From Planctomycetota bacterium (GTDB lineage Bacteria; Planctomycetota; UBA1135; UBA2386): a stretch of DNA of 64,000 nucleotides. A program made the position numbers and the translations under genes. The DNA is taken from positions 12,780 through 76,779 of the forward strand of contig CANMWZ010000018.1 in assembly GCA_947501605.1 (NCBI GenBank), written 5' to 3'. A model generated the notes under the pieces. That model worked only from the letters and a program-made list of their open reading frames with translations. It was not told where the DNA came from and ran no database searches. Position 1 is the first letter of the stretch, and every line of letters starts with the position of its first letter. Below, piece by piece: positions 23,635 to 50,360 of this stretch.

Positions 23635-23669
23635 ACGCCGGTGATGCCGACCTGCGGCACCACCGGCGT
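23635..23669. terminator. Hairpin between convergent metH and NIDO-like paralog 1
   Basis: ACGCCGGTG (23635-23643) and CACCGGCGT (23661-23669) are exact reverse complements with a 17-nt loop. Confidence 0.5.
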
Positions 23670-23699: not shown

Positions 23700-25445
23700 T
23701 CAGATCCCGATCGTCCAACGAACGCCGTTGGAGACGCGGTAGCCAAACGCATTGGCCGTGAGGTCGTCGCTGATCGCTTGCGACATCAGTTGCACGCCGA
23801 CGAAGGCGGGCGTGTTGGGGATCGCGATCAGGTAGGTCGTGGTTGGCGCGCCGAGCGTCAGGTTGAAGTACGAGAGCAGCTCCGGCAGCGCGATGTAGGC
23901 CGTGCAGCCAGTGAGGCCGAAGCCATCGAGCGGGAAGCCGCCGGGGAGTTCGTTGCTGATCAACAAGATGCTGAAGACACCGTTGGGCAGGCTCGCGATG
24001 TTGTTGGTATCCAGCGTGTAGTTGCTGCCGATGGTCGGAACCGAGCCGGTTGGGACCGACAGGGTCAGCGGGAACACCTGGGTGCCCGGTACGGTGAGAC
24101 CATTGACGGTTGACAGGTCGGCGGCGCCGGAGTTCTGCACGTTGCCGCCGCGCGAGTATCCCGCCAGGAAGAAGCCGGTGTTCAGCGACACGTTCTGCCA
24201 GCGGATCGTGAACTGACCCGTCGGGCTGAGCGCGATCTGGACGTTGATGGGGGTCGCCGCGCCGTACTCCGGCACGTTGCGCCAGCTGATAACGAATTCG
24301 CCAGTGCCGGCGTCGAGCGCGTGCTCAACCGTGCCGCCAGAGGTCGGATCGAGGTCTTCCCACCAAGCTGCAATGCGAGCCGGTCCGCTGACGAGCACAG
24401 CAGGGTCTCCCGTGCAGCACCCGTCACCCGGATCCGTACCGCCGATGGTCAAGAAGCCGTTCGACGACACATAGATCGAGGTCTCGTTGGCGCCGTTGAA
24501 CGGGAACGCGAACGGCAAGGGGACCAAGTGCGAACTGTCATCGAGTGCCAGCAGTGGGGTTCCAGCGCCAGCGAACCACACCGGCGAAAGGCCGGGCAGC
24601 GCGATGTAGTCGTTGCCCGACGGCAAGAAGCTGAGGTTGAGGCCGCTGAGGTCGGGGGCGTTGTTGGCGCTGAACTGCTCATAGAGCGTGGGCGAAGCCG
24701 CAGCCGGGCAGCCAGCGCCGACTACGGTCGAGGTGGCGACGTTCGACGTGCACGTGACGTCGGTGACGACGTAGCCAGGGTTGGTCGGCGTGAACAGCCA
24801 CTTCGAGTTGGCGTAGGGCAGGAGCTGGCCGGGAGCACGCGTGATCACTTGGGCAAATGCGTTGGTCGCGATGTTCAGCGGGCGCGTGGCGAAGTTGACG
24901 GTCGGTGTCGCCACACCAGGACTCGCGCCGATGATCGCGGTGTTGGCCTGGAACGTCGACGTCGTGCCCAACGTGCCGTAGGCCACCGTGAAGGTGTTGT
25001 TGGCGAAGAGCGAGATCTGCATCGTGCCTGGCAACGTCGTGCCGTAGGTGTAGACGCGGATCCACGAAACGCGCGCGACGCCCGGCGTCGAGTTGTCGAA
25101 GTAGACCTGGCCGCTGCCCGCAATCGTGGGGTTGAAGTCGTTCCAGTAGGGGCAGATGCGCGCGCCGCCGGTCGCCATCTCAGCGAGCGTTGGCGAGTAG
25201 TCGCCGCCGTTCAGCGTCGACACGTTGGTGGAGCCGAGCACGAGGTAGCCGTTGGCGCACACCGAGATGCTGCTGTGGACAACACCGTTGTAGGTGAACG
25301 AGAACCCGAGGGGCAGCGGTGCCGTGACCTGGTCGTCACCGAGTGCGAGGCTGGGCCCGAAGTTGGTGTCGAAGCACGGACTCTGGGCCAACAGAGATGC
25401 AGCAAAGCTGGCTGCGAGAGCGGACGAGAGAAGGCTGCGGAGCAT
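23700..25445 (-). CDS. Secreted two-module NIDO-like protein with the shared C-terminal domain, paralog 1 of 5
   Basis: The track ORF 23700..25535 was trimmed to ATG 25445 (AGGAG upstream; MLRSLLSSALAASFAASLLAQSPCFD). Module 1: LGDDQVTAPLPLGFSFTYNGVVHSSISVCANGYLVLG...ARICPYWNDFNP. Module 2: DDSSHLVPLPFAFPFNGANETSIYVSSNGFLTIGGTDPGDGCC...RIAAWWEDLDP. Tail: ...ILLISNELPGGFPLDGFGLTGCTAYIALPE...IPNTPAFVGVQLMSQAISDDLTANAFGYRVSNGVRWTIGI. Confidence 0.85.
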   Translation of the reverse strand: MLRSLLSSALAASFAASLLAQSPCFDTNFGPSLALGDDQVTAPLPLGFSFTYNGVVHSSISVCANGYLVLGSTNVSTLNGGDYSPTLAEMATGGARICPYWNDFNPTIAGSGQVYFDNSTPGVARVSWIRVYTYGTTLPGTMQISLFANNTFTVAYGTLGTTSTFQANTAIIGASPGVATPTVNFATRPLNIATNAFAQVITRAPGQLLPYANSKWLFTPTNPGYVVTDVTCTSNVATSTVVGAGCPAAASPTLYEQFSANNAPDLSGLNLSFLPSGNDYIALPGLSPVWFAGAGTPLLALDDSSHLVPLPFAFPFNGANETSIYVSSNGFLTIGGTDPGDGCCTGDPAVLVSGPARIAAWWEDLDPTSGGTVEHALDAGTGEFVISWRNVPEYGAATPINVQIALSPTGQFTIRWQNVSLNTGFFLAGYSRGGNVQNSGAADLSTVNGLTVPGTQVFPLTLSVPTGSVPTIGSNYTLDTNNIASLPNGVFSILLISNELPGGFPLDGFGLTGCTAYIALPELLSYFNLTLGAPTTTYLIAIPNTPAFVGVQLMSQAISDDLTANAFGYRVSNGVRWTIGI

Positions 25446-25580
25446 GGGACTCCTGAGAGGGGTGTATGGCCAGTGGGGGACAATGGGAGCTGGCCGGGGT
25501 GGATTGCGACGAACGCTGTCCCCTTGGGGTTCCATCTTGCCATACCCGCGATCCCGTGCCTGTGGGGTTGCAGCACAAAT

Positions 25581-25621
25581 GACGACGCCCGGCCGACCGC
25601 GAGGGTCGTCCGGGCGTCGTC
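25581..25621 (-). terminator. Strong hairpin 19 nt downstream of paralog 2
   Basis: The 12-nt arms GACGACGCCCGG and CCGGGCGTCGTC are exact reverse complements, with further inner pairing CGACC/GGTCG. On the minus strand it is followed by ATTTGTG. Confidence 0.6.
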
Positions 25622-25639
25622 GTTCGGGCGCGAGCTAGA

Positions 25640-27400
25640 TCACAGACCGAGGATCCAGCGGACGCCGTTCGACACGCGGTAGCCGAAGGCATTTGCGGTC
25701 AGGTCATCGCTGATCGCCTGCGACATGAGCGTCACGCCGGCGAAGGCGGGGACGTTTGGGATCGGGATCGAGAACGTCGTGGTTGGCGCGCCAAGCGTCA
25801 GGTTGAAGTACGACAGCAGCTCTGGCAGCGCGATGTAGGCCGTGCAGCCAGTGAGGCCGAAGCCATCGAGCGGGAAGCCGCCGGGGAACTCGGTGCTGAT
25901 CAACAGGATGCAGAAGATGCCGTTCGGCAGGCTCTGGATGTTGGTCGCATCGAGCGTCATGGTCTGGCCGAGCTGCGGCAGGCCCGTCGGGGTCAGTTCG
26001 AGCGGAACCGAGATCAGGCCGCTGACCAGCTGGCCGCTGACCGCCGAAATGTCGGTGACACCCGGATCCCCCGTGTTGCTGCCGGCGGAGTAGCCGGAGA
26101 TCCACGTGTGACCTTGGTCGCTCACCGACTGCCAACGGATGGTGAACAGGCCGCTCGGGTTCAGCGCGATCTGGAAGGTCTCTAGCGGGCCTGCAAAGAA
26201 CTCGGGGACCTGATTCCAGGTGATGACGTACTCTCCAGTCGCGACGTCGAAATCGGCGAAGACGCCGCCGCCGGGGCCGGCGCCCGGAGGATAGATGTCC
26301 GCCCAGAAGCCCGAAATGCGCGGTGGCCCGGAGAGCATCGTCAAGACGTCGCCTGAGCAGCAGCCGCTGAACGGATCCGTAGCACCCAGCGTGAGGAAGC
26401 CGTTCGACGAGACGTAGATCTGGGTCTCGACCCCGCCGTTGTATGGGAACGGGAACGGCAACGTGATCTGGATCGTCTCGTCGTCGTTCATCAGGAGGTT
26501 GTTGGTGAACCCGGCGTACCACGTCGGGGCCACGTTCGGCAGGGCTAGGTAGTCGATAGCCCCCGAGGGCACGAAGCTCAGGTTGAGGCCGCTCAGGTCC
26601 GGCTGGTTGCCGAAGGTGTCGAAGATCTCGTAGAGCGACGGGCCGCTGCGACCAGGGCAGCCGCTACCGACGACCTCCGTCGAAGCGGGGCCGGGGAACG
26701 AGTTCGGCGTGCAGGTGAGGTCCGAGACTACGTAGCCTGGGGACGTCGGCGACCACAGCATCTTGAAGCCGAAGGGGATCGGCAGGCCGGGCGTTGTGCC
26801 GACGAAATCGCTGAACGAGTTCGAGGCGGTGACGACGGGCCGGGTCGCCAGCGAGATGGGATTCGAGACCGCGCCGAAGCCCGGGCTCGCGCCGATCAGG
26901 TAGTCCGTGCTGAACGCACCGATCTCGAGGGTCGGGCCGTAGGCGATGGTGACGCTGTTGCTGGCGTCGAGTGTGAGCTGGAAGCTGTTCGGCGTCGTGG
27001 TTGCGAATGCGAACACGCCAGCCCAAGAGATTCGGGCGACACCGGGCGTCGAGTTGTCGAAGTAGACGTGGCCGCTGCCGGTGGCACCTGGATTGAGGTC
27101 GGTCCAAAAGGCGCAGATGCGTGGATCACCGGCCAGCAGCTCCGCTTCGGTCGGGGTGTAATCGCCGCCGAACTGAGGGTTGACGCTGCCGAGCCAGATG
27201 TACCCATTCGAGCACACCTGAATGTCCGTGTAGGTGACGCCGTTGTAGGTGAAGTTGAAGCCGAGCGGCAACGGTGCCGACGTGTCGTCGTCGAAGAGAT
27301 TCAGGTCGGTGCCGATCGTGAGATCGAAGCACGGGCCCTGCGCAGGGAGCGTCGCGAAGAGAGTCGTCGCGATCGCGGCAGTCAGAATGCTGCGAAGCAT
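25640..27400 (-). CDS. Secreted two-module NIDO-like protein with the shared C-terminal domain, paralog 2 of 5
   Basis: Trimmed to ATG 27400 (MLRSILTAAIATTLFATLPAQGPCFD). Same architecture as paralog 1: DDDTSAPLPLGFNFTYNGVTYTDIQVCSNGYIWLG; ITLPFPFPYNGGVETQIYVSSNGFLTLGATDPFSGCC; tail ...RVSNGVRWILGL. Confidence 0.85.
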   Translation of the reverse strand: MLRSILTAAIATTLFATLPAQGPCFDLTIGTDLNLFDDDTSAPLPLGFNFTYNGVTYTDIQVCSNGYIWLGSVNPQFGGDYTPTEAELLAGDPRICAFWTDLNPGATGSGHVYFDNSTPGVARISWAGVFAFATTTPNSFQLTLDASNSVTIAYGPTLEIGAFSTDYLIGASPGFGAVSNPISLATRPVVTASNSFSDFVGTTPGLPIPFGFKMLWSPTSPGYVVSDLTCTPNSFPGPASTEVVGSGCPGRSGPSLYEIFDTFGNQPDLSGLNLSFVPSGAIDYLALPNVAPTWYAGFTNNLLMNDDETIQITLPFPFPYNGGVETQIYVSSNGFLTLGATDPFSGCCSGDVLTMLSGPPRISGFWADIYPPGAGPGGGVFADFDVATGEYVITWNQVPEFFAGPLETFQIALNPSGLFTIRWQSVSDQGHTWISGYSAGSNTGDPGVTDISAVSGQLVSGLISVPLELTPTGLPQLGQTMTLDATNIQSLPNGIFCILLISTEFPGGFPLDGFGLTGCTAYIALPELLSYFNLTLGAPTTTFSIPIPNVPAFAGVTLMSQAISDDLTANAFGYRVSNGVRWILGL

Positions 27401-27526
27401 GGGTTCCTTGAAAGATGGGGGGCGTTCACCTCTGCGACGTCGGGAGCCGTGCGCAGGTGCAGTCGATCCTAGAGATAATGGCACACTTAGCGATGAGGCC
27501 ACCGGCGGCAGTGTGTCGCCAAAATG

Positions 27527-27568
27527 CAAAACGCCCGGGGCACCGGCGAGCGGGCCACGGGCGTTTTG
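27527..27568 (-). terminator. Rho-independent-type terminator downstream of paralog 3
   Basis: The arms CAAAACGCCCG (27527-27537) and CGGGCGTTTTG (27558-27568) are exact reverse complements. On the minus strand the stem is followed by CATTTTGG (U-run). Confidence 0.65.
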
Positions 27569-27616
27569 CGGACGGGCGCGCGAGCCGCGTCCGTCACCGT
27601 CCTCAGAGCGCTTGGC

Positions 27617-29383
27617 TCAGAGGCCGAAGTTCCAGCGGAGACCGTTCGACACGCGGTAGCCGAAGGCGTTCGCGGTGAGGTCGTCGCTGACGGCCTGCGA
27701 CATCAGGCTGACGCCGTAGAAGGCGTTGTCGTTCGGGATGCTGATCGGCCACGACGTGGTCGCTGCGCCCAGCGTCAAGTTGAAGAACGACGCGATCTCT
27801 GGCAGCGCGACGTAGGCCGTGCAACCTGTGAGGCCGAAGCCGTCGAGCGGGAAGCCGCCCGGGACTTCGGTGCTGATCAGCAGGATGCAGAACACGCCGT
27901 TCGGCAGGGTCTGGACGCCGGTCGCATTGACCGTGAACGTGCCGCCGACTTGCGGGCGCGAGTTCAGGGCCGCCGCGATCGACAGCGGCGTGACCGTCGC
28001 CGGGATGTTGTTCGAGTAGTAGCCCAACGGCTGCGTCAGCACCAAGTAGTCGAGGCCGGTGTTGAACATCACGACTTCGAGGCCAGTCATGTCGATCGGC
28101 GACGCGTTGTTCGCGAACGTCTGGTACATCGTCGTGGCGTTGACGCCGGCGACGCCCGAGATGTCCGTGACACCCGGATCCGCAGCGCCGCCACCGACCG
28201 AGAAGCCGGTGAGCGCCACGCGCGTGGCGCTGACGATGCCGACGTTCAGGAAGCGCATCGTGACGGTGCCCGTCGGCGACAGCGCGATCTGGAAGTTGTT
28301 CGCCGGCTGCGGGGTGGCGCCGAACTCACCAGCGGAGACCCAGTTGATCACGTACTCGCCCGTGATCGCATCGACGTAGGCGTTGACTTCGCCGTTGCCG
28401 GTCGCCGACAGGTTGAGGTCCTGCCAGAAGGCCGCGAGGCGCGTCGGGCCCGTAAGCAGCGTGGCGGGGCTACCGGCGCAGCAGCCAGAGCCTGGGTTGG
28501 TCGTGCCGAGGGTCAGGAAGCCGTTCGACGAGACGACGATGTTGTTGAACGTGCCCGTCGGTGCCGGGAACGCGAACGGCAGGGTGAGTGCATGCGTGGT
28601 GTCGTCACCGGCGTTGAGGGCCGGGCTCACAAGGGCTGGGCAACCGACGCCGACGACTGCCGAGCTGGCCGGGGGCGGCAGCTGGTTCGGCGTGCAGGTG
28701 ACATCCGAGATCACGAAGCCGGGGTTGGTCGGGGTCCACAGCATCTTGAAGTTGCCGTAGGGGATCGGGACGCCGTTCACTGCCGGAATCGCTTCCGAGA
28801 ACGTGTTCGACGTCGAGATGATCGGGCGCGTGGCGAACGAGACCGGGTTGGCCACCGAGGCAGCACCGGGGCTGGCGCCGATGAGGACGGTCGTGTTCAG
28901 CGTGCCGGGAACGGCCGCGGCGCCGTAGGTGACCGTGACGCTGTTGCTGGCATCGAAGCTGACCTGGAAGTTGATGCCAGTCGTCGTGCCGAAGGCGAAC
29001 ACACCGGCCCAAGTGACCGTGGCGACGCCCGGCGTCGAGTTGTCGAACCAGACTTTGCCGCTGCCGACCGCGCCCGGGTTGAAGTCGCTCCAGAGCGGGC
29101 AGATGCGCGGCGCACCGGCGAGCAGTTCGGCCTCGGTCGGCGAGAAGTCACCGCCGGCGATGCCGGTCGTGCCGAGCCAGATGTAGCCGTTCGAGCACAC
29201 GCTTACCTGCGTGTAGGCGACACCGTTGTAGGTGAACGTGAAGCCGAGGTTCTGGGCCGCCGACGTGGAGTCGTCGATCAGCGCGAGATCGGTGCCGAGA
29301 GGGAGGCTGAAGCACGGGGCCTGGGCGCCGAGTGAGGCGGCGAGGGCCGTTGCAACGGCGGTCGTGAACAAACTACGAATCAT
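27617..29383 (-). CDS. Secreted two-module NIDO-like protein with the shared C-terminal domain, paralog 3 of 5
   Basis: Trimmed to ATG 29383 (MIRSLFTTAVATALAASLGAQAPCFS). It has IDDSTSAAQNLGFTFTYNGVAYTQVSVCSNGYIWLG; LTLPFAFPAPTGTFNNIVVSSNGFLTLGTTNPGSGCC; tail ...RVSNGLRWNFGL. The middle region is the most divergent of the five. Confidence 0.85.
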   Translation of the reverse strand: MIRSLFTTAVATALAASLGAQAPCFSLPLGTDLALIDDSTSAAQNLGFTFTYNGVAYTQVSVCSNGYIWLGTTGIAGGDFSPTEAELLAGAPRICPLWSDFNPGAVGSGKVWFDNSTPGVATVTWAGVFAFGTTTGINFQVSFDASNSVTVTYGAAAVPGTLNTTVLIGASPGAASVANPVSFATRPIISTSNTFSEAIPAVNGVPIPYGNFKMLWTPTNPGFVISDVTCTPNQLPPPASSAVVGVGCPALVSPALNAGDDTTHALTLPFAFPAPTGTFNNIVVSSNGFLTLGTTNPGSGCCAGSPATLLTGPTRLAAFWQDLNLSATGNGEVNAYVDAITGEYVINWVSAGEFGATPQPANNFQIALSPTGTVTMRFLNVGIVSATRVALTGFSVGGGAADPGVTDISGVAGVNATTMYQTFANNASPIDMTGLEVVMFNTGLDYLVLTQPLGYYSNNIPATVTPLSIAAALNSRPQVGGTFTVNATGVQTLPNGVFCILLISTEVPGGFPLDGFGLTGCTAYVALPEIASFFNLTLGAATTSWPISIPNDNAFYGVSLMSQAVSDDLTANAFGYRVSNGLRWNFGL

Positions 29384-29527
29384 GGTTTCCTCGATGTACA
29401 GGGGGCTGCATTGGCCGGAAACGGTGCATAGGGCTCCGGTTCTGGGGGCTTTGCTTGGATGAAGCCTACGCGCGAGAGGTTCCCTCACAATGGCCCGATG
29501 TAACTGCGGAGTCTCCCCGAAATGCGG

Positions 29528-29564
29528 AACGCCGGTAGTGCTGGCGACCAGCACTACCGGCGTT
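29528..29564 (-). terminator. Perfect 17-bp hairpin downstream of paralog 4
   Basis: AACGCCGGTAGTGCTGG-CGA-CCAGCACTACCGGCGTT. The arms are exact reverse complements. It lies 40 nt after the paralog 4 stop and upstream of the real paralog 3 start. Confidence 0.65.
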
Positions 29565-29603
29565 CAGGACGCAGGGCGCAGCAGGCGCGCCCGATCTGGC
29601 CGA

Positions 29604-31358
29604 TCAGAGGCCGCCGATGTTCCAGCGGAGGCCGTTCGACACGCGGTAGCCAAAGGCGTTGGCCGTCAGGTCGTCACTGATCGCCTGGGTCATGAGCGAC
29701 AGGCCCAGGAACGCATTGTCGTTCGGGATGCCGATCGTGAAGGTCGTGCTCGGGGCGCCGATCGTCAGGTTGAAGAACGACGCGATCTCTGGCAGCGCGA
29801 CGTAGGCCGTGCAGCCCGTGAGACCAAAGCCGTCGAGCGGGACGCCGCCCGGGATCTCGGTGCTGATCAGGAGGATGCAGAACACGCCGTTCGGCAGGCT
29901 CTGGATACCGCTGGCGGTGGAGCTGAAGGACAGACCGATGGTCGGGCGGGTGCCCGAGGCAAAGCCGAGCGACAGCGGAATGGTGCGGCAACCGAGGTTG
30001 ACGCCATTGAGTGCCGACACGTCACTGCTGCCGGGGTTCGTCGCACCGCCACCGCTGCTGTAGCCAGTGAGTTGGGTGCCGCCGGCGAATGCCAAGGCGA
30101 CCCAGCGGATCGTGAACTGGCCCGACGGGCTCAGGGCGATCTGGAAGGTCTCGGTGTTGGTTTGGCCGAACTCGCGGACCGCGTTCCATGTGATGCAGAA
30201 CTCACCCGTCACGGTGTCGAGGTCGGCAAAGACCGCACCGCCAGCGGCGGGGTTCAGGTCTTCCCACATGCCAGCGATGCGCGGCGAGCCGGCGAGCAGC
30301 GCCACGGGGTCACCCGCGCAGCAGCCCGAGCCCGGATCCGTGCCATCCAGCGTGATGAAGCCGTTCGACGAGACCCAGACGTTACTGACCGTGCCGCCGC
30401 CGTGCGGGAAGGCGAAGGGCAGCGCGACATTGCTCGTGCTGTCGTCGGTGAGCAACAGGTTGTTGGCGGCGCCAGTGAAGAACGTCGGCGAGATGCCGGG
30501 GACCACGAAGTAGCCGCCGCAGCCGTTCGGGACGAACGACTTGTCGAGGCCGGCGAGGTCGATCGAGGCCGGGACCGTGAACGTCTCGTAGACCGAGACG
30601 CTGGTCGCGGTCGGGCAACCGGTGCCGACGACCGCTGCGCTACCAGGAAGCGGCAGCGGGATCGCCGTGCACGCGACGTCGGTGATCACGAAGCCCGGGG
30701 ACGTCGGGGTCCACTGCATCTTCGTGTTGGCGTACGGCGCCACGGTGCCCGTGGGATTGAGGATGACCTGATAGGTCGTGTCCGAAGCGCTGATGATCGG
30801 ACGCGGCGTCAGCACGATGTTGTTGGCAACCGCGCCGCCACCCGTCGTGGCACCGATGATCGTCGTGCCGCCCTGGGCCGTCGACGACGGGCCGAGCTGA
30901 CCGATCGTGACCGTCACGCTATTGGTGAGGTCCAACGTGATCTGCATGTCGGTCTTGATCGTCGTGCCGAACGTGTAGACGCCGGCCCACGTGACGCGGG
31001 CGAAACCCGGGGTCGAGTTGTCGAAGTAGACGTGGCCGCTACCGACGATAGTGGGGTTGAAGTCCATCCACGCGCCGCAGATGCGCGGGCCCTGCGCCAG
31101 CAGTTCGGCTTCGGTCGGGTTCCAATCGGCAACGGCATTGGCCGCGCCAAGCCACACGTAGCCGTTCGAGCAGACGCGGACTTGCGTGTAGGCAACGCCG
31201 CCGTAGGTGAACGTGAAGCCGAGATTCAGAGCTGAAGACGTGGTGTCGTCACCCAGGTTGAGATCGGTGCCGGCCGGCAAGTCGAAGCACGGGGCCTGGG
31301 ACGTGAGACCAGCAGCAAAGGTTGCTGCAACAAACGTAGTGAGCAAGGTACGGAGCAT
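29604..31358 (-). CDS. Secreted two-module NIDO-like protein with the shared C-terminal domain, paralog 4 of 5
   Basis: Trimmed to ATG 31358 (MLRTLLTTFVAATFAAGLTSQAPCFD). It has LGDDTTSSALNLGFTFTYGGVAYTQVRVCSNGYVWLG; VALPFAFPHGGGTVSNVWVSSNGFITLDGTDPGSGCC; tail ...RVSNGLRWNIGGL. Confidence 0.85.
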   Translation of the reverse strand: MLRTLLTTFVAATFAAGLTSQAPCFDLPAGTDLNLGDDTTSSALNLGFTFTYGGVAYTQVRVCSNGYVWLGAANAVADWNPTEAELLAQGPRICGAWMDFNPTIVGSGHVYFDNSTPGFARVTWAGVYTFGTTIKTDMQITLDLTNSVTVTIGQLGPSSTAQGGTTIIGATTGGGAVANNIVLTPRPIISASDTTYQVILNPTGTVAPYANTKMQWTPTSPGFVITDVACTAIPLPLPGSAAVVGTGCPTATSVSVYETFTVPASIDLAGLDKSFVPNGCGGYFVVPGISPTFFTGAANNLLLTDDSTSNVALPFAFPHGGGTVSNVWVSSNGFITLDGTDPGSGCCAGDPVALLAGSPRIAGMWEDLNPAAGGAVFADLDTVTGEFCITWNAVREFGQTNTETFQIALSPSGQFTIRWVALAFAGGTQLTGYSSGGGATNPGSSDVSALNGVNLGCRTIPLSLGFASGTRPTIGLSFSSTASGIQSLPNGVFCILLISTEIPGGVPLDGFGLTGCTAYVALPEIASFFNLTIGAPSTTFTIGIPNDNAFLGLSLMTQAISDDLTANAFGYRVSNGLRWNIGGL

Positions 31359-31578
31359 GGGTTCCTCGATGTACGGGGGGTAGGCACGCGAGGCGCGCAC
31401 TCCGCCATGAGCCGGAGTGCGGGACTGCGAGCGCCGGAGGATACCAGCGGATCGCTGTCTCGCTAGTGGGGCCTCCCCATCCCCAGCCGAGGCAGAGGTT
31501 GCCCGCGAGGGACGCGGACTTGCGGCGCTACGGACCTGCTGCGAACTTCGTAGGGCTCAGATGCGCCGTAGCGAACCG

Positions 31579-33333
31579 TCAGAGGCCGAGGTTCCAGCGC
31601 AGGCCGTTGGAGACGCGGAAACCAAAAGCGTTGGCGCCGAGATCGTCACTCACCGCCTGTGACACCAGGGACACGCCGGCGAAGGCTGGGTTGGACGGGA
31701 TCGCAATCGAGTAGGCAGTCGTTGGCGCGCCAAGCGTCAGGTTGAAGTAGGACAGCAACTCCGGGAGGGCGACGTAGGCGGTGCAGCCGGTGAGGCCGAG
31801 CCCGTCGAGCGGGACACCGACCGGAACCTCGAGGCTGATCAAGAGGATGCAGAAGACGCCGTCTGGCAGCGGCTGGATGCCGCCAGCGTTGACGGTGAAG
31901 GTCGTGCCGATCGAGGGGCGCGAGTTGGCGGCAGCCGCGATCGTCAGCGGCGCCCGGACCGTGGCACTGATGGTGCGGCCATTGACGGCAGTCAGGTCCG
32001 TCGAGCCGGTGTCGGGAGTGCCGGTGCCGCGCGAGTAGCCAGCGAGGTAGCTGCCGCTCGTGCGCGCCACGTTTTGCCAGCGCGTTGTCATCATGCCGCT
32101 TGGGCTGAACGCGATTTGGAAGGTGTTGGGGCTGCTCGTGCCGTACTCGACCACCGCGTTCCAGGTGACCACAAAGTCACCGGACGTGGCGTCGAAGTCG
32201 GCGTAGACCGCGCCGCCGGCGGCGGGGTTCAGGTCTTCCCACCAGCCGCACAAGCGTGGCGAGCCCGCGAGCATCGTGGCGACGTTCGGCGTGCAGCAGC
32301 CACTGCCGGGACTGGCGCCGCCAATCGTCAAGAAGCCGTTCGATGACACGTAAATCGTCGACTCGCTGGAGCCGTTGAACGGCAGCGGGAAGGGCAGCGT
32401 GATCGGCACGGCCGCGTCGTCACCAAGGAACAGGTTGTTGCTGAAGCCCGCGAACCACGTCGGTGAGATGTTGGGGATCGCGATGTAGTCCGTGGCGCCG
32501 GCCGGCAGCAAGCTGAGGTTGAAGCCATTCAGGTCCGCGGCGTTCGTTGGCGTGAACAGCTCGTAGAGCGAAGGGCCGCTGCGGCCAGGGCAGCCGTCAC
32601 CGAGGATCTGCGAGCTCGCCGGCACCGGCAACGAGTTCTGTGTGCAACTGACATCAGTGATGACGAAGCCCGGGCTGGTCGGCGTCCACAACAGCTTGAC
32701 GTTGCCGTAGGGGATCGGAACGCCGCTCACCACCGCGAGGGCTTCATGGAACGTGTCCGAGGTCGAGATCATCGGTCGCGTGGCCAGCGAGACCGGGTTC
32801 GAGAGCGCGGCGGCACCAGGACTGGCGCCGATGACGATCGTCGTGTTCAGCGTGCCGGGGACGGCCGGGGCGCCATACGCGATCTGGATACTGTTGGTCT
32901 GATCGAACGTGACCTGGAAGCTCGCTGGCGTTGTGGAGCCGAACGGATAGACCCCAGCCCACGTCACGCGGGCGCTGCCTGGCGTGGCGTTGTCGAAGTA
33001 AATGTGGCCGCTGCCGGGCGCACTGGGATCAAAGTCGCTCCACATCGGGCAGATGCGCGGCGCGCCGGCGAGCAGCTCGGCGGCAGTCGGCGAGAAGTCA
33101 CCGCCGGCGATGCCGGTCGTGCCGAGCCAGATGTAGCCGTTCGAGCAGACACTGATCTGCGTGTAGACGACGCCGTTGTAGGTGAACGGGAAGCCGAGAC
33201 TCAGAGCGGGCGACGTCATGTCGTCGGTCAGAGCGAGGTCGGTGCCGAGCGCGAGATCGAAGCACGGGCTCTGGGCTGCGAGCGCGGCGGCGACGCCCAT
33301 GGCGAGCACAGAAGCGGCGATTTGACGGATCAT
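31579..33333 (-). CDS. Secreted two-module NIDO-like protein with the shared C-terminal domain, paralog 5 of 5
   Basis: This is the C-terminal 584 codons of the 1198-aa track ORF 31579..35175, starting at ATG 33333 (MIRQIAASVLAMGVAAALAAQSPCFD). It has LTDDMTSPALSLGFPFTYNGVVYTQISVCSNGYIWLG; ITLPFPLPFNGSSESTIYVSSNGFLTIGGASPGSGCC; tail ...RVSNGLRWNLGL. Confidence 0.85.
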   Translation of the reverse strand: MIRQIAASVLAMGVAAALAAQSPCFDLALGTDLALTDDMTSPALSLGFPFTYNGVVYTQISVCSNGYIWLGTTGIAGGDFSPTAAELLAGAPRICPMWSDFDPSAPGSGHIYFDNATPGSARVTWAGVYPFGSTTPASFQVTFDQTNSIQIAYGAPAVPGTLNTTIVIGASPGAAALSNPVSLATRPMISTSDTFHEALAVVSGVPIPYGNVKLLWTPTSPGFVITDVSCTQNSLPVPASSQILGDGCPGRSGPSLYELFTPTNAADLNGFNLSLLPAGATDYIAIPNISPTWFAGFSNNLFLGDDAAVPITLPFPLPFNGSSESTIYVSSNGFLTIGGASPGSGCCTPNVATMLAGSPRLCGWWEDLNPAAGGAVYADFDATSGDFVVTWNAVVEYGTSSPNTFQIAFSPSGMMTTRWQNVARTSGSYLAGYSRGTGTPDTGSTDLTAVNGRTISATVRAPLTIAAAANSRPSIGTTFTVNAGGIQPLPDGVFCILLISLEVPVGVPLDGLGLTGCTAYVALPELLSYFNLTLGAPTTAYSIAIPSNPAFAGVSLVSQAVSDDLGANAFGFRVSNGLRWNLGL

Positions 33334-33473: not shown

Positions 33474-35090
33474 TCAGTAGCGGACGCTGGCGCGCGCGTG
33501 CGGCCCAACAGCGCCCGTGACGTCGGCTGTTCCCCATGGGCGGGCGACGATCAGGTCGATGCCGAGGATCACCGAAACCAGGATCAGGGTCCTTGCGCGC
33601 GACCAGTTGGGAATCGTGGGAACGAGCGGTGCGAGCGCCGCAGACCAGAGCAAGGCAAGTGCTGGAATGCACAGCGCGCCAAGTCGCGCATAGCCGAAGA
33701 ACACGGTTGCGACCGCGAGTTTCGTCAGCAGCCAGAGCGCGAGAGCGGCCGCCGCTGGTTCGCGACGCAGGCGCCATGCGCCCGAAACCGCAAGCAGCAG
33801 CAACGAAGTGCGCCAGGCGACTGCGAACCAGTTGTCGGCGACGACGAGGTCCACAGGCTCGCGCGTGCCGCTGCGGCCGAGCGGCAGATTGGCGAGACCC
33901 AGGCCCGCGGTGGCGCCGCGCCACGCCTGCGCGATTTTGCGCGTGACGAGATCCAATGCGCCACCGGGGTGCCCGACGACCCAGTCGAGCCCGAGCCGGT
34001 AGCCGTCGTTCACGGCCCGCAAATGTGGTGGGTACGAGAGTTCGAGTTCTCGCGGCAGCACGTTCAGCAATCCCGCTGGATAGCGATCGAGTCCACCAGT
34101 GAGCGGCGGTCGGCGATCGAGTGGTCCGCGCGTGAAGCCGCCGTCGCTCTCGCTGCAGTTGGCGAGGAAGAAGTTGAGCGGGCCGTACAGCGCGATCAGC
34201 GGCGTGTGCAACGGCGCGGGCATGTAGCCGTAGGCCTCGGTGACGATGCGCAGGTCGCCTGGCGTCACGCGCGCGCCAGCACGGACCCGGACGGTGTCGC
34301 CGACGAACGCCGCGGTCGAGAGTTGCGCAAATGGCGGTAGCGCGCGAACTGCTGCAAGGGCCTCGTCCGCCCAAGGCAACGAACCGGGCAACGGCAGCCT
34401 CGGCGCGCTGCTGCCGATCTTGCCGCTGTTGAAGTCGGCGATCGTGCGATGCACATGCAGTTGCCAGGGCAGCAAGACGAGCACGAAGGTCGCGATCGCC
34501 ACGCCGAGGTCGCGAGCGCGCGAGTTCTGCTTTTGCCACAGCAGCCATGCGATGCTGGCGACGAAGCAGAGCAGATGGTCGGCGCGGAACAGGCATGCGA
34601 CTGCGTGCAGCATGGCCCAGCGCACGGCCGCCGCTGGCGCCGCCCCGGTGCGCAACCGGTCGAAGTCGGCGAGCGTCAGGACGAACAAGAGCAGATACGG
34701 GATCTCGCCGTGCACGCCGTTGCCGAGGACGATCAAGGCGTTGCTGAGGGCGCAGATCCAACCCGCGGCGAGTGCAATCGGTGCCGCGAAGGTGCGTCGC
34801 AAAGCGAGGTAGAGCAGTGGCGCGACCAGCGCTCCGAGGGCGACCATCAAAGCGCGTGGCAACAGCGCATCCACGCCGCCGTCCCACGTTGCGCGCGCGA
34901 GCCAGCCCATCGCCGGTGGGCGAAACGGGAGCGCTGCTTCGAGGCCCGCGGTGCCGTTCGCGAACTGTTGCCAGTATGGCGCGTCCCCCTGGTACGAGGC
35001 TTCGAACGGCGCGCTCCGCTGCGGTGACGCAAGCCAGTGCACTGCACGCACAGTCAGGCTGGCGGAGAACAACGCAACGGCGTGACGCAT
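33474..35090 (-). CDS. Polytopic membrane glycosyltransferase, GT-C fold (PMT_2 / ArnT / GT39-like)
   Basis: 538 aa with about 10 or more hydrophobic segments around a large central soluble loop. The N-terminal third resembles dolichyl-phosphate-mannose / undecaprenyl-phosphate-sugar transferase families (RPPAMGWL...LPRALMVALGALVAPLLYLALRR). It lies in a different frame from the overlapping part of ORF 31579..35175 and looks far more protein-like. The family assignment is from memory only. Confidence 0.6.
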   Translation of the reverse strand: MRHAVALFSASLTVRAVHWLASPQRSAPFEASYQGDAPYWQQFANGTAGLEAALPFRPPAMGWLARATWDGGVDALLPRALMVALGALVAPLLYLALRRTFAAPIALAAGWICALSNALIVLGNGVHGEIPYLLLFVLTLADFDRLRTGAAPAAAVRWAMLHAVACLFRADHLLCFVASIAWLLWQKQNSRARDLGVAIATFVLVLLPWQLHVHRTIADFNSGKIGSSAPRLPLPGSLPWADEALAAVRALPPFAQLSTAAFVGDTVRVRAGARVTPGDLRIVTEAYGYMPAPLHTPLIALYGPLNFFLANCSESDGGFTRGPLDRRPPLTGGLDRYPAGLLNVLPRELELSYPPHLRAVNDGYRLGLDWVVGHPGGALDLVTRKIAQAWRGATAGLGLANLPLGRSGTREPVDLVVADNWFAVAWRTSLLLLAVSGAWRLRREPAAAALALWLLTKLAVATVFFGYARLGALCIPALALLWSAALAPLVPTIPNWSRARTLILVSVILGIDLIVARPWGTADVTGAVGPHARASVRY

Positions 35091-35199: not shown

Positions 35200-38190
35200 T
35201 CACGGAACGAACAGACTCTTGTGCTGGTTCGACAGCGTGAAGCTGCCGTCCGGCTCGAACACCAACACCTGCGTGTAGAGCAGGATGCCCTGCGCGGGCA
35301 TGCCCGGGAACGACGGGAAGTTCAGGCTGTAGAGCCCGGTCGGACCTGAGAAGTCAGTGAAGAAATCGAGCGTGCCACCGACCGAGGCGGTCGGGAAACC
35401 AGGAGCGCTCGTCGGGCCGCCAGTGTCACCGAGCACCAGCACGAACAACTTCGCGGCACCGTTGGTGGTGATTGCGATGTTGACGTTCTGGCTGGCGCTG
35501 GACTGTTCCGGCGTCATCTGCAGAGTGGCCGCGAGCGGCGGCACGGTACGCGTGCCGAGTTCGAGGTCGTCGATCGTCCAGCCGCCGAGTTGCAGACCGC
35601 CGTCCGTGATCAGGCGGAACTCGACCTGCACCGATGGATTGTTGTCTGCCATCGGCAGCGCGTACTCGAAGGTCTGCCACGACGTGTCGATCAAGTTGCC
35701 GGTGGTCGGGTTCTGCCAGACGAGCACCCCGTTCACGTTGATCTGGGCCTGATCGAAGACGGCTTCTTCGACCGTGAGCCAGCGCTTGAAGCGCAGCACG
35801 ACGCCCGAGCGGCCGGTGCAGTCGATGATCGGTGACCGCACGAACTCGTTGATGCTCGCCGGGTAGGCACCATTGGCCGTGCCGGTGCCGAGGTCGGTCG
35901 CCACCGCGCGCGTGCCGGTCGGAGCGCCGAGCGGATCGGCCCAGGCGATGCCGAGCGAAGTGCCCAACTTGCCGTTTGGCGCGCCGAACTGCCAGTCGAC
36001 CGTGCCGGTCGTGCTGGAGCGGCCAGTGGTCCAACCCGCGGGTGTGCCAGCACCTTCGAAGCCCTGCGAGAAGAACTGGACGTAGGTGCCACCGAGGCTG
36101 CCGCTCACCGTGTAGGTGAGTTCGCCGGTCAGCGGGAAGCGACCTGTTCCAGTCGTGCTCGTGGCTTCGACGTGGTAGCTGATCTGGCCCGAGGACAGGC
36201 CCGGCAGCATCGAGCGGTAACCCGTCAAGGTGCCGTCCGTCACCATGTTGCGCGTCTGCGTGGGCCCACCGGCGGCCGAGTAGACAAGGCGCATCTGCGT
36301 GATCGCGCCGAGGTCGTTGGCGATGCCCTGGGCGCTGACGAGGCGCGAGTTGTAGCGGTCGCCCGTGTTCGTCAGTGCCGTGTGTACGACGGTCACTGGC
36401 TGGAACGTGGGGAACGGGATCGCCTTGATGTTGGCCGCGGCGCTGAGTTCGGTGTAGTGCGGGACGCCGTTGAACAGGTTGCCGTCGTCGTCATCCGCGA
36501 TGAACACTTCACGCACGGCGTCGACGCGCGTCTGCGCGTTGGCGACCAACGTGCCGATGACGATGTCGTTCGTCAGTGCGATTGCTGCAGGGCTGCCAAG
36601 GCTCGTGCGCAGTTGCTGACGCAGTTGCCAGGCAAAGCCCATCCACACCTGTCCCGCTGTGTGCGGCGAAGTGCCGGAGGCCGGCCACAGCAGCGTGTTG
36701 TTGCCACTGCGCAGCGCGACGTTCGCGGTCTGGAAGCCACTGCCGAGCGACGGGCTGTCGACGAGGTAGAGGCCGACGACGTCGCCCCAGCCTTCGCTCA
36801 AGCCTTCGGCGTTCGAGTTGAAGATGCCACCGTAGCGCTCGTCGATGCCGTGGCCCCATTCGTGGGCGATGACCGTCGAGAATGCCGTGTTCGCGCAACC
36901 GCCGCCCTGGGCGTAGAAGTTGATCGTGTTGCCCGTGTAGTAGGCATTGCACGTCGACGCGATGTTGACCGTCGGCGTGATGCCGCTTGCGGTCGCGAGT
37001 TGCGCCGAGTTGCCGAGGATCGAGCGGCAGAACTCGTTGGTCCGGTCGATCCAGTAGCTGGTCGTGACGTCCGAGGCCTGTTCGGGCGTGTCCGTCGAGG
37101 CGCCCAGCTGGACCGTGTTCGGCACGCCTGGCGTGATCGTGAAGGTGCCGCCAGTCGACTGGCCCCCGATCAGCGTGGCGTGGTGGCGACCGTCGAGCGC
37201 GCCGATCGTGATGTTGACCGGTACTGCGATGTCGACCGTGAACTGGCCGTTGTTGTCCGTCGTCACGTTGCCGATGCCCGGAACGTTGACCACGAGGCCG
37301 GGGATTCCGGCGTTGCTCAGCGCGCTGAAGGCGTCGTTGCCGGTGCGGGTCCACTGCTGGACCGTCACCGTCGTCTGGACGAGGGCGCTGCCGTCCTTGC
37401 CCTTGATCGAGGCCGCGAGGCGAGCCGTCTCGGAAAGGCTGCAATTGGCCATGCCGCACTCGTGCTTGTCGGTGCGGAAATGGAGGACGTTGCCGTTCTT
37501 GGCGTCGATGTAGTAGCGGCCGATCGGGCCGAGGCCTTCGGCGTCGACGTTGCTGACCGGGACTTCCCAGGCCAGGTAGATCGGTGCCGCGTCCTGAGCT
37601 TCCACGTCGCCCCAGATGACGAGCCGCAGTTCGCGCGGCTTGCCGGGCTGGGTGACGCCGGTCGGCTGCTGGCCGAGGGCCATCCAGGCACGCGCAGTCG
37701 CCTCGGCTTCTGCGATCGTCGGCATGACGTCGAAGTTGGCGGGGACTTGCCAAGCGGTGCTGCCGATCATGGCGAGCACGCCCTTCATGTTGATGCGGAC
37801 GTCGGCGCGCCCGTCGATGCAGGGCAGACTGCGGAAGTACTGGTCAAAGGTGAACGACCAAGTGCGACCCATGCGCGCACCGATGCTCTCGCGAAACTCG
37901 GAGACGCCGAGGCCGAGAAGGTCACCGTGCTCGCCAAGGGCGAGGTTGGCGTGGCGGCGGGCCTCTTCGATCGAGTTGCCGCGCCAACCGGCGAGCGTGG
38001 CGCCGGAGCCGTAGATGGCGCGTGGGGTGTTGGTTGCAACTGTCCATTGCGCCAGCCATTGGCCGCCGAGCCGTTCGCTCAGTGCTGGGAAAGGCATGGG
38101 CTGGAAGTTCTTCGAAAGGGGCACCTGCTTGGTGTCCTGTGCCATGGCGAAGGACGCCAAGATCAGACTGAGAAGCGGCGTGAAACGCAT
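35200..38190 (-). CDS. Secreted zinc metalloprotease, M36 (fungalysin)-like, with extra beta domains and a divergent copy of the shared C-terminal domain
   Basis: Trimmed to Met21 (ATG 38190; MRFTPLLSLILASFAMAQD signal). An FTP/PepSY-like propeptide region is present. The zinc site is VIAHEWGHGIDE followed by EGLSEGWGD (the HExxH...EGWxD pattern of M36). A later jelly-roll-like region (WQFGAPNG...GGWTIDDLELG) follows. The tail is ...KLFVLVLGDTGG...FPSFPGMPAQGILLYTQVLVFEPDGSFTLSNQHKSLFVP. Confidence 0.8.
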   Translation of the reverse strand: MRFTPLLSLILASFAMAQDTKQVPLSKNFQPMPFPALSERLGGQWLAQWTVATNTPRAIYGSGATLAGWRGNSIEEARRHANLALGEHGDLLGLGVSEFRESIGARMGRTWSFTFDQYFRSLPCIDGRADVRINMKGVLAMIGSTAWQVPANFDVMPTIAEAEATARAWMALGQQPTGVTQPGKPRELRLVIWGDVEAQDAAPIYLAWEVPVSNVDAEGLGPIGRYYIDAKNGNVLHFRTDKHECGMANCSLSETARLAASIKGKDGSALVQTTVTVQQWTRTGNDAFSALSNAGIPGLVVNVPGIGNVTTDNNGQFTVDIAVPVNITIGALDGRHHATLIGGQSTGGTFTITPGVPNTVQLGASTDTPEQASDVTTSYWIDRTNEFCRSILGNSAQLATASGITPTVNIASTCNAYYTGNTINFYAQGGGCANTAFSTVIAHEWGHGIDERYGGIFNSNAEGLSEGWGDVVGLYLVDSPSLGSGFQTANVALRSGNNTLLWPASGTSPHTAGQVWMGFAWQLRQQLRTSLGSPAAIALTNDIVIGTLVANAQTRVDAVREVFIADDDDGNLFNGVPHYTELSAAANIKAIPFPTFQPVTVVHTALTNTGDRYNSRLVSAQGIANDLGAITQMRLVYSAAGGPTQTRNMVTDGTLTGYRSMLPGLSSGQISYHVEATSTTGTGRFPLTGELTYTVSGSLGGTYVQFFSQGFEGAGTPAGWTTGRSSTTGTVDWQFGAPNGKLGTSLGIAWADPLGAPTGTRAVATDLGTGTANGAYPASINEFVRSPIIDCTGRSGVVLRFKRWLTVEEAVFDQAQINVNGVLVWQNPTTGNLIDTSWQTFEYALPMADNNPSVQVEFRLITDGGLQLGGWTIDDLELGTRTVPPLAATLQMTPEQSSASQNVNIAITTNGAAKLFVLVLGDTGGPTSAPGFPTASVGGTLDFFTDFSGPTGLYSLNFPSFPGMPAQGILLYTQVLVFEPDGSFTLSNQHKSLFVP

Positions 38191-50029: not shown

Positions 50030-50360
50030 GGGAGAGGCCTGGGGGGAGAAGAGAATCGTAGACTCGTGGGCGTGGACGGTTTCGCGGCCGTCCGCGGTCC
50101 CGCGAGCAGGCTGGGCGGAGGCACAGGAGCATAACTCCTGACCAGCGATTTGGGGCCCGTGCGAGTGGCGCTTCGTTGCCGTCCGTTCGGTCGACCGCCT
50201 TGCCGGCCGGGCGAGGCCTCTCGCGCCGAGTGAATGACCGGTGGCGCCGCAGTCGTGGGGCGAGACGACCGTGCTGGTGGCATGTGCCAGTGCGCCGATC
50301 CTAGAACGGGACTCTGCGACCCGGCAGCGAAGCCGCCTGCTTCCGCTGGTCCGATAGGTC

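What the first reader, a model, noticed from the sequence alone, without database searches (positions are those of the whole stretch)
23700..33333. Head-to-tail array of five ~585-aa paralogs built from two NIDO-like modules
Five consecutive minus-strand genes encode proteins with the same architecture.
- A Sec signal ends in AQ(S/G/A)PCF(D/S).
- Module 1 is (L/I).DD..S....LGF.F(T)Y.GV.Y..(I/V).VC(S/A)NGY(I/L/V)(W/V)LG ... (P/A)RIC(P/A).W.D(F/L)NP.
- Module 2 is LPF(P/A)FP..G......(I/V)(Y/V)VSSNGF(L/I)T(L/I)(G/D).(T/A).P(G/F).GCC ... (P)R(I/L)(A/S/C)(A/G).W.DL(N/D)P.
- The shared C-terminal domain follows.
The motif trio (DD..S / fPF.F.G..y..lyV..NG.isf / ia.fW.D.d) is what I remember as the hallmark of the NIDO domain (nidogen/mucin-4 extracellular domain, Pfam PF06119). 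That domain has no established function and is only sparsely noted in bacteria. Five tandem, independently terminated copies suggest an expanded surface or adhesin family, possibly with antigenic or functional diversification.
Basis: partly seen in the sequence, partly recalled or inferred. Interest (0 to 1): 0.75.

Follow-up and report, generated by a model that had tools for sequence, protein, structure and literature searches.

The report
Five tandem NIDO-like secreted planctomycete paralogs
Five neighbouring genes of an uncultured planctomycete encode secreted all-beta proteins with two remote copies of the animal NIDO (nidogen) domain, ending in an uncatalogued C-terminal domain that thousands of other secreted proteins of this lineage also carry, so it may be a surface-sorting or anchoring tag.

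Summary
Window 23700-33333 (minus strand) holds five intact genes of 581-588 aa that are 54-64% identical. Each has a Sec signal, two homologous modules and a shared C-terminal domain.

The NIDO reading holds as remote homology:
- g5 just reaches Pfam's cut-off (25.1 bits against 25).
- 38 of 51 family members hit PF06119.
- The family profile aligns colinearly with human nidogen-1 NIDO (hhalign E 1e-4).

The array is real and old. Related Planctomycetota MAGs carry 5, 5 and 3 copies at the same locus. The closest genome has positional one-to-one orthologs. Ortholog dN/dS is 0.15-0.29, which indicates purifying selection, not antigenic variation.

New here is that the C-terminal ~330 aa (a 45-aa 'tail', NIDO-like core 2 and a ~120-aa Ig-like CTD) is a reusable cassette. 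The CTD matches 10,404 cluster representatives and always lies at the extreme C-terminus. It follows Kelch, FG-GAP, lectin and other passengers, and no Pfam or NCBIfam model covers it.

Best reading: these are exported, Lys/Arg-poor binding proteins with a diversified NIDO-like passenger and a constant sorting or anchoring cassette. Function and localisation are inferred, not shown.

The parts
23700..25445 (-). g1, 581-aa paralog (signal, NIDO-like module 1, tail2, NIDO-like core 2, CTD)
   Evidence: The ortholog P0031 is 86% identical, with dN/dS 0.15.
25640..27400 (-). g2, 586-aa paralog, same architecture
   Evidence: The ortholog P0018 is 83% identical, with dN/dS 0.24.
27617..29383 (-). 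g3, 588-aa paralog, a permuted isoform in which the 45-aa tail lies after NIDO-like core 2 rather than before it
29604..31358 (-). g4, 584-aa paralog
   Evidence: A partial ortholog is 80% identical.
31579..33333 (-). g5, 584-aa paralog, first of the array, with no SD-like motif
   Evidence: The ortholog P0002 is 74% identical, with dN/dS 0.29.
32584..33273 (-). g5 NIDO-like module 1 (core 32794-33273 plus tail 32584-32793). Equivalents: g1 24702-25385, g2 26651-27340, g3 28634-29323, g4 30609-31298.
   Evidence: family HMMs, E 1e-68 to 1e-78 for cores; Pfam NIDO hit of g2 at aa 60-117
32434..32583 (-). g5 'tail2' segment (YE.F...DL.G..L.F.P...Y). Equivalents: g1 24558-24701, g2 26498-26650, g4 30459-30605. 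In g3 it is relocated to 28034-28135.
31984..32433 (-). g5 NIDO-like core 2. Equivalents: g1 24105-24554, g2 26039-26497, g3 28151-28618, g4 30012-30458.
   Evidence: Pfam NIDO hits of g5 at aa 386-410 and g4 at aa 385-424; hhalign to nidogen-1
31582..31944 (-). g5 C-terminal domain (CTD, Ig-like beta-sandwich). Equivalents: g1 23703-24065, g2 25643-26002, g3 27620-27976, g4 29613-29966.
23635..23669 (-). terminator-like hairpin after g1 (15-bp stem, then CUGCAUUUCU)
   Evidence: z -4.4, 0 of 200 shuffles
25581..25621 (-). terminator-like hairpin after g2
   Evidence: z -5.0
27526..27569 (-). terminator-like hairpin after g3, followed by GCAUUUUG
   Evidence: z -3.5
29527..29565 (-). terminator-like hairpin after g4 (18-bp perfect stem)
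   Evidence: z -5.4
33474..35090 (-). conserved upstream neighbour: a 538-aa polytopic membrane protein, weakly PMT_2/GT-C glycosyltransferase-like
   Evidence: below cut-off; E 0.016 here and 0.0012 in the L001 ortholog over the whole profile
35200..38190 (-). conserved neighbour: a secreted HEWGH metalloprotease, weakly M36 (fungalysin)-like
   Evidence: the L001 ortholog scores 27.4 bits against a cut-off of 23.3
16302..17411 (+). h1, a secreted protein of another family that carries the same CTD (17049-17405)
17721..18818 (+). h2, tandem paralog of h1 with the same CTD (18456-18812)
47222..50467 (-). 1081-aa beta-propeller/CCP_MauG-like protein with a weak CTD match at its extreme C-terminus (47237-47560)
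   Evidence: E 1e-4

Best explanation
The five genes are old tandem paralogs that are kept separately. They probably encode proteins exported to the cell surface or outside the cell, in an uncultured Planctomycetota lineage.

Each protein is modular:
- a Sec signal peptide, with cleavage predicted to leave an N-terminal Gln;
- a 'passenger', which is a NIDO-like beta module (core plus tail);
- a C-terminal cassette found across the lineage, made of a 45-aa tail, a second NIDO-like core and a ~120-aa Ig-like domain (CTD) that always ends the protein.

I infer that the constant CTD, and perhaps the whole cassette, directs the protein to its final place. That could mean recognition by an export or attachment pathway, or direct binding to an envelope component. 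The more divergent NIDO-like modules would bind ligands such as proteins or glycans, as animal NIDO domains bind matrix partners. On this reading the array gives the cell five related but non-redundant binding specificities.

Shown by the analysis: architecture, homology, conservation, selection regime and the distribution of the CTD.

Inferred only: export beyond the inner membrane, the sorting or anchoring role of the CTD, and ligand binding.
For: - Signal peptides are present, and six Cys are conserved in at least 40 of 51 members.
- The AF2 model is all-beta, with pLDDT 87.8.
- Lys+Arg is 1.6-2.5% in the paralogs, against 10-13% in cytoplasmic proteins of the same window.
- NIDO homology is supported.
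- The CTD is 79% identical between copies (dN/dS 0.22), while the modules are 51-59% identical (dN/dS about 0.5).
- The CTD matches 10,404 representatives (3,937 at E<=1e-10). It ends 0-7 aa from the C-terminus in 146 of 146 carriers, is single-copy, and sits behind unrelated passengers including Kelch, FG-GAP, Rax2-type propellers and C-type lectin. Of 102 carriers that start with Met and have more than 60 aa before the CTD, 79 show an obvious signal peptide.
- Eight CTD proteins lie in this 64-kb window.
- All copies are under purifying selection.
- g1-g4 have their own SD-like sites, and g1-g4 are each followed by a hairpin.
- The array is conserved, with copy-number variation between genomes.
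Against: - There is no experimental or proteomic evidence of localisation.
- The CTD resembles only generic Ig/FN3 folds (best PDB E 2e-3). It shows no relation to the T9SS sorting domain (hhalign probability 0.1%).
- No candidate sorting machinery was identified.
- NIDO itself has no established biochemical function, so ligand binding is an analogy.
- Only the best 150 of the 10,404 CTD carriers were inspected.
- The conserved DD / NG / W.D residues could equally mark a catalytic or metal-binding site.
Confidence: 0.5

Rival explanations
1. The proteins are structural envelope or matrix components, such as an S-layer-like coat, fibre or crateriform-structure protein. On this view the CTD is a self-assembly or oligomerisation domain, not a sorting signal, and the five copies are alternative building blocks.
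For: - The composition is acidic, Lys/Arg-poor, rich in Gly, Ser and Thr, and all-beta.
- The proteins contain several Ig-like or sandwich modules.
- Animal NIDO proteins are matrix components (established knowledge).
- Many paralogs per genome share one conserved terminal domain.
Against: - CTD carriers have very different passengers, including propellers, lectins and possible enzymes. That fits a targeting tag better than a lattice subunit.
- No repeats or coiled coils are present.
- There is no abundance or expression evidence.
Confidence: 0.2
2. The array encodes substrates or partners of the adjacent PMT-like GT-C glycosyltransferase and M36-like protease. On this view the proteins are exported glycoproteins that are O-glycosylated during export and then matured by proteolysis, and the locus is one functional unit.
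For: - The order M36-like, GT-C-like, array is kept in four genomes.
- A distant genome places two copies next to a YfhO-type GT-C protein.
- Ser+Thr is 19-20%.
- g5 has no hairpin and no SD-like site separating it from the GT-C gene.
Against: - The GT-C assignment is below Pfam's cut-off (15.9 and 19.5 bits against 26.1), and no relative has a solved structure.
- These genomes are close (MetH 84% identical), and the unrelated MetH gene is just as syntenic, so the gene order may simply be inherited.
- Single-copy relatives sit in other contexts.
Confidence: 0.15
3. The NIDO-like modules are enzymes, or autoprocessing domains, of a fold not yet characterised. On this view the invariant DD / SNG / W.D residues form an active or metal-binding site, and the array is a set of secreted hydrolases or modifying enzymes.
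For: - Acidic and polar residues are invariant across both modules and shared with nidogen-1.
- Bacterial NIDO domains occur next to M43, M10 and S41 peptidase domains.
- No solved structure limits the possible function.
Against: - No similarity to any enzyme family or fold was found.
- In those peptidases NIDO is an accessory domain beside a complete catalytic domain.
- Known animal NIDO proteins are non-enzymatic matrix proteins.
Confidence: 0.1

Closest known systems
NIDO domain (Pfam PF06119 / nidogen-like; nidogen-1/2, MUC4, alpha-tectorin, SNED1)
   Same: The colinear motif set is shared: DD..S, (V/I)YV..NG, W/L.DL(D/N), VVTW and NTFQ.(A/V)L. Both are all-beta and extracellular and lie behind a signal peptide. 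The relationship is detectable by Pfam, by hhalign and through intermediate bacterial NIDO proteins.
   Different: - Identity to nidogen-1 is only 20-25%, and most copies score below Pfam's cut-off.
- The host is bacterial.
- There are two modules per protein, each with a 45-70-aa tail that can be permuted.
- The modules are fused to a planctomycete-specific CTD instead of EGF, AMOP or vWD domains.
T9SS C-terminal sorting domain (Por_Secre_tail, PF18962 / TIGR04183) of Bacteroidota
   Same: It works alike in outline. It is a ~80-120-aa Ig-like beta-sandwich, strictly at the extreme C-terminus and single-copy. It occurs on very many Sec-dependent proteins with unrelated passengers, and is restricted to one lineage.
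   Different: - No sequence or profile similarity was found.
- Planctomycetota are not known to have a T9SS (general knowledge, not tested here).
- It is often coupled to a preceding NIDO-like core.
- Cleavage, attachment and machinery are all unknown.
Tandem paralog arrays of bacterial surface proteins (for example chlamydial Pmp autotransporters in the PVC group)
   Same: The genes are clustered, separately expressed paralogs of exported proteins with a constant targeting part and a diverged functional part. Copy number varies between genomes.
   Different: There is no beta-barrel or autotransporter domain. There are no phase-variation repeats. Selection is purifying rather than diversifying.

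Membership tests
NIDO (PF06119) | Score at or above Pfam's gathering cut-off (25 bits) | tested here: inconclusive
   g5 scores 25.1 bits, which is at the cut-off. g2 scores 18 and g4 16.2. g1 and g3 have no hit. Across the family, 38 of 51 members hit at E<=0.01, best 7.4e-9.
NIDO (PF06119) | Colinear alignment with a founding NIDO domain through the conserved motifs | tested here: met
   hhalign of A1 against human nidogen-1 residues 66-186 gives E 1.1e-4 and probability 56%. YV..NG.DLD, VVTW and NTFQ all align. DD..S aligns in the MAFFT alignment.
NIDO (PF06119) | Link through intermediate sequences that pass the cut-off | tested here: met
   P0073 (38.5 bits, profile positions 5-148) and P0072 (31.8 bits) match g5 through this region.
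NIDO (PF06119) | Same three-dimensional fold as animal NIDO | not testable with these tools
T9SS C-terminal sorting domain (PF18962 / TIGR04183) | Sequence or profile match to the CTD models | tested here: not met
   No Pfam or NCBIfam hit covers the CTD in the paralogs or in 10 carriers. hhalign against a true Por_Secre_tail protein gives probability 0.1%.
T9SS C-terminal sorting domain (PF18962 / TIGR04183) | Strictly C-terminal, single-copy, on diverse Sec-dependent cargo | tested here: met
   The domain ends 0-7 aa from the C-terminus in 146 of 146 carriers. Passengers are diverse, and signal peptides are present in most.
T9SS C-terminal sorting domain (PF18962 / TIGR04183) | Presence of the cognate machinery (PorU/V, SprA and so on) and cleavage of the CTD | not tested
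   No whole genome was available to scan, and no proteomic data exist.
Rho-independent terminators | Stable GC-rich hairpin followed by a U-tract | tested here: inconclusive
   Strong hairpins follow g1-g4 (z -3.5 to -5.4). Each is followed by only 3-4 U (CAUUU(U/C)G), and the consensus scan found one of them. None follows g5.
GT-C glycosyltransferase (PMT_2, PF13231), for the neighbour at 33474-35090 | Score above Pfam's cut-off (26.1 bits) | tested here: not met
   The score is 15.9 bits here and 19.5 bits in the L001 ortholog, although the match spans the whole profile. Weak precomputed PMT and PMT_2 hits are recorded for the L021 ortholog. No PDB relative was found. I treat this as a lead only.

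The most novel reading that the evidence does not exclude
The ~120-aa C-terminal domain, often together with the preceding NIDO-like core, may be the recognition tag of an undescribed pathway in this uncultured Planctomycetota lineage. Such a pathway would move proteins across the outer membrane or attach them to the surface. It would be functionally analogous to the T9SS CTD system but unrelated in sequence, and it would serve thousands of cargo families. On this reading the five-gene array is one cargo family whose passenger is itself a NIDO-like module.
Probability: 0.2. Interest if true: 0.8.

Novelty: new variant of a known kind. Interest (0 to 1): 0.5.

Why it matters
NIDO is one of the animal extracellular-matrix domains that still has no known biochemical function and no solved structure. 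A compact bacterial family with two NIDO-like modules, a confident structural model and many natural variants, including circular permutants, would be a tractable system for working out what the fold does.

Separately, the analysis exposes a very large class of exported planctomycete proteins that has not been catalogued. It comprises more than 10,000 clusters defined by one strictly terminal domain. That is the sequence signature expected of a protein-sorting or surface-anchoring system. Protein export and surface display in Planctomycetota are poorly understood.

Tried and rejected
- **Assembly artefact:** rejected. The copies are 54-64% identical, independent assemblies give the same proteins, and the array is conserved elsewhere.
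- **Lipoprotein:** rejected. The residues before the first Cys (QSP, QGP, QAP) do not form a lipobox (sequence).
- **Antigenic or diversifying selection:** rejected at region level.
- **Recent expansion or strong concerted evolution:** not supported. An NJ tree groups copies by genome, but only weakly for the window (34% bootstrap). The closest genome shows positional one-to-one orthologs. Only short exact DNA tracts of 45-64 nt hint at micro-conversion.
- **T9SS-type CTD:** no profile similarity.
- **Known enzyme fold:** none found by Foldseek against PDB, by a PDB profile search, or in Pfam and NCBIfam.
- **Vicinal Cys-Cys of module 2 as a family hallmark:** rejected. It is present in only 15 of 39 family representatives and 9 of 58 other carriers.


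Full report
**1. Observation**

Window 23700-33333 contains five consecutive minus-strand genes. After trimming to the Met before the signal peptide they are:
- g1 23700-25445 (581 aa)
- g2 25640-27400 (586 aa)
- g3 27617-29383 (588 aa)
- g4 29604-31358 (584 aa)
- g5 31579-33333 (584 aa)

Pairwise identity is 54-64%. GC3 of 0.84-0.88 marks these as the coding frames, so the long plus-strand ORFs over the same DNA are high-GC shadows. An HMM built from module 1 finds module 2 in every copy (E 1e-18 to 1e-23), and the two modules are 29-33% identical.

**2. Gene organisation**

g1-g4 are each preceded by an AGGA/GAGGAA Shine-Dalgarno-like motif. g1-g4 are each followed, just after the stop codon, by a long GC-rich hairpin and then CAUUU(U/C)G. 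The hairpins lie at 23635-23669, 25581-25621, 27526-27569 and 29527-29565 (z -4.4, -5.0, -3.5 and -5.4; no shuffle out of 200 folds as well). g5 has neither an SD-like motif nor a significant downstream hairpin. It lies 140 bp after a membrane-protein gene, so it may be co-transcribed with that gene (inference). 'Independently terminated' is therefore plausible for four of the five genes. The U-tracts are short, and only one site passed the consensus scan.

**3. Is it NIDO?**

PF06119 is the only Pfam family with any consistent hit. g5 scores 25.1 bits against a cut-off of 25, g2 scores 18 (module 1) and g4 scores 16.2 (module 2). g1 and g3 have no hit. NCBIfam gives nothing.

Three further tests strengthen the link:
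- When members of a 51-sequence family alignment (A1) are scanned individually, 38 hit NIDO at E<=0.01, with the best at 7.4e-9.
- Distant relatives that match g5 through this region carry above-threshold NIDO domains. P0073 scores 38.5 bits over profile positions 5-148, and P0072 scores 31.8 bits. In these proteins NIDO is an accessory domain of M43, M10 or S41 peptidases.
- The family profile aligns colinearly with the NIDO region of human nidogen-1. The hhalign result is E 1.1e-4 and probability 56% against a single-sequence template, with YV(S/T)(S/T)NG.DL(N/D), VVTW and NTFQ all in register. The DD..S motif upstream of the Pfam boundary also aligns.

I conclude that this is real but remote NIDO homology (20-25% identity).

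**4. Finer anatomy**

Each protein has five parts: a signal peptide, NIDO-like core 1 (~160 aa) with tail 1 (~70 aa), a 45-aa 'tail2' (YE.F...DL.G..L.F.P...Y), NIDO-like core 2 (~150 aa), a variable linker, and a ~120-aa C-terminal domain (CTD).

Tail2 weakly resembles the tail of module 1. In most members tail2 lies before core 2. In g3 it lies after core 2, at 28034-28135. The same arrangement occurs in two of the five copies in L001, in two copies in L002, and in P0060, P0095 and P0097. Two architectural isoforms, a local circular permutation, therefore coexist within arrays of different genomes.

Six Cys are conserved in at least 40 of 51 members. That fits disulfide bonding outside the cytoplasm (inference).

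The mature proteins are acidic and very poor in Lys+Arg, at 1.6-2.5%. Cytoplasmic proteins encoded in the same window have 10-13%.

**5. The C-terminal part is a lineage-wide cassette**

Within the window, the CTD also ends two other tandem secreted paralogs with a different N-terminal region. These are h1 (16302-17411) and h2 (17721-18818). It also appears weakly at the end of a 1081-aa beta-propeller/CCP_MauG-like protein (47222-50467).

An exhaustive profile search with a 12-sequence CTD alignment (A2) gave these results:
- It found 10,404 cluster representatives at E<=1e-3, and 3,937 at E<=1e-10.
- In all 146 of the best carriers that I examined, the domain ends 0-7 residues from the C-terminus.
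- Of 102 carriers that start with Met and have more than 60 aa before the CTD, 79 show an obvious signal peptide, typically ending in A-Q.
- Carriers range from about 110 to 809 aa.
- N-terminal passengers include Kelch, FG-GAP and Rax2-type propellers, and C-type lectin. No Pfam model covers the CTD in any of them.
- Local HMMs show 30 carriers with tail2, NIDO-like core and CTD behind unrelated N-termini; 25 with NIDO-like core and CTD; and 36 with the CTD alone. Cassette-only proteins also exist, for example P0118.
- Every carrier with an organism name is from Planctomycetota.
- Carriers as a class are Lys/Arg-poor (median 2.6%).

The CTD modelled on its own (pLDDT 81) is a generic Ig/FN3-like sandwich, with a best PDB E-value of 2e-3. 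It shows no profile similarity to a true T9SS Por_Secre_tail (probability 0.1%).

**6. Evolution**

The family comprises about 70 full-length proteins of ~580 aa. All are from Planctomycetota MAGs.

The same locus (M36-like protease, PMT-like membrane protein, the array, then a convergent MetH) carries five copies in GCA_050247215.1 and three in GCA_965191875.1. In the closest genome, GCA_040080205.1, it is split over contigs. More distant genomes have one to three copies in other contexts.

Against the two moderately related genomes (MetH 84% identical), the best cross-genome pairs are only 46-58% identical, and copies tend to cluster by genome. The closest genome, however, has positional one-to-one orthologs: g5 74%, g4 80% (partial), g2 83% and g1 86%. 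The duplications therefore predate that split.

Ortholog dN/dS is 0.15-0.29 overall and never exceeds 0.55 in any region. It is highest in module 1 of g5.

Among the paralogs, divergence differs by region:

| Region | Identity between copies | dN/dS |
|---|---|---|
| CTD | 79% | 0.22 |
| NIDO-like modules | 51-59% | about 0.5 |
| Linker (aa 451-488) | 36% | 0.9 |

Exact DNA tracts of 45-64 nt between some copies suggest occasional micro-conversion.

Overall these are old, fast-evolving but functionally maintained paralogs. They do not form an antigenic-variation system.

**7. Neighbours**

The upstream 538-aa membrane protein is weakly PMT_2-like. It scores 15.9 bits, and its L001 ortholog 19.5 bits, against a cut-off of 26.1, though the match spans the full profile. 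Weak precomputed PMT hits are recorded for the ortholog in the closest genome. In L002 the neighbour is YfhO-like, which is also GT-C. The 996-aa HEWGH protein is weakly M36-like.

This could mean that the paralogs are glycosylated and processed. However, MetH is equally syntenic and the genomes are close, so the linkage is weak evidence.

**8. Interpretation**

- Best supported (confidence about 0.5): these are exported, disulfide-bonded, Lys/Arg-poor beta proteins. A constant C-terminal cassette or CTD determines destination or attachment, and the diverged NIDO-like modules bind ligands. The array provides five non-redundant specificities.
- Rivals: a structural envelope or matrix subunit (0.2); glycoprotein substrates of the neighbouring GT-C and protease genes (0.15); an uncharacterised enzyme or autoprocessing fold (0.1).
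- Shown by the analysis: architecture, homology, distribution and selection.
- Inferred only: localisation, the sorting role and binding.

**9. Novelty and score**

Bacterial NIDO hits already exist in Pfam-based annotation, and several of these proteins carry a precomputed PF06119 label. The NIDO finding is therefore a new variant of a known kind: a dual NIDO-like architecture with permuted isoforms and a new partner domain.

The more novel element is the strictly terminal CTD and cassette, which no database catalogues and which define a very large class of planctomycete exported proteins. If it proves to be a sorting tag for an unknown export or anchoring pathway (probability about 0.2), that would be of high interest.

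Overall interest: 0.5.

Noticed in passing
window 16302-17411 (+) and 17721-18818 (+): This is a second tandem pair of secreted paralogs (369 and 365 aa). Their ~245-aa N-terminal region has no Pfam or PDB match, and they end in the same CTD as the five NIDO-like genes. An ortholog exists in the closest genome (P0100/P0245, ABL997_07180).
   Followed up: partly
window 28034-28135 (g3); also L001 5770-9693 (copies 1 and 2) and L002 10001-14478: The 45-aa 'tail' segment lies after NIDO-like core 2 in g3 but before it in g1, g2, g4 and g5. Both arrangements coexist within arrays of several genomes. The g3 type looks like a plain tandem duplication of core plus tail, so the common type would be a circular permutant.
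   Followed up: partly
window 47222-50467 (-): This 1081-aa protein has lactonase-type beta-propeller and di-haem cytochrome c peroxidase (CCP_MauG) hits. It has a weak CTD match (E 1e-4) at its extreme C-terminus (47237-47560). That makes eight CTD proteins in 64 kb.
   Followed up: no
g1-g5, h1, h2 and about 100 CTD carriers (P0095-P0240): CTD carriers are extremely poor in Lys+Arg. The paralogs have 1.6-2.5% and carriers have a median of 2.6%, against 10-13% for cytoplasmic proteins of the window. Their signal peptides almost always end in A-Q, which predicts an N-terminal Gln on the mature protein.
   Followed up: partly
window 33474-35090 (-) and 35200-38190 (-): The two conserved upstream neighbours are a polytopic membrane protein with a weak full-length PMT_2 (GT-C) match and a secreted HEWGH metalloprotease that is weakly M36-like. 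The protease's C-terminal tail (..YTQVLVFEPDGSFTLSN..) looks superficially CTD-like but is not significant with the CTD HMM.
   Followed up: partly
between g1 and g2 CTD regions (about 23.9 and 25.9 kb) and between g3 and g5 module 1 (about 29.2 and 33.1 kb): Exact DNA matches of 64 nt (g1-g2) and 62 nt (g3-g5), and one of 45 nt (g3-g4), occur between genes that otherwise differ at about 40-50% of synonymous sites. This suggests short gene-conversion tracts.
   Followed up: partly
module 2 of g1-g5 (for example g5 aa 346-347, SGCCT): A vicinal Cys-Cys is present in all five window copies. It occurs in only 15 of 39 family representatives and 9 of 58 other cassette carriers, so it is not a hallmark of the fold.
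   Followed up: yes
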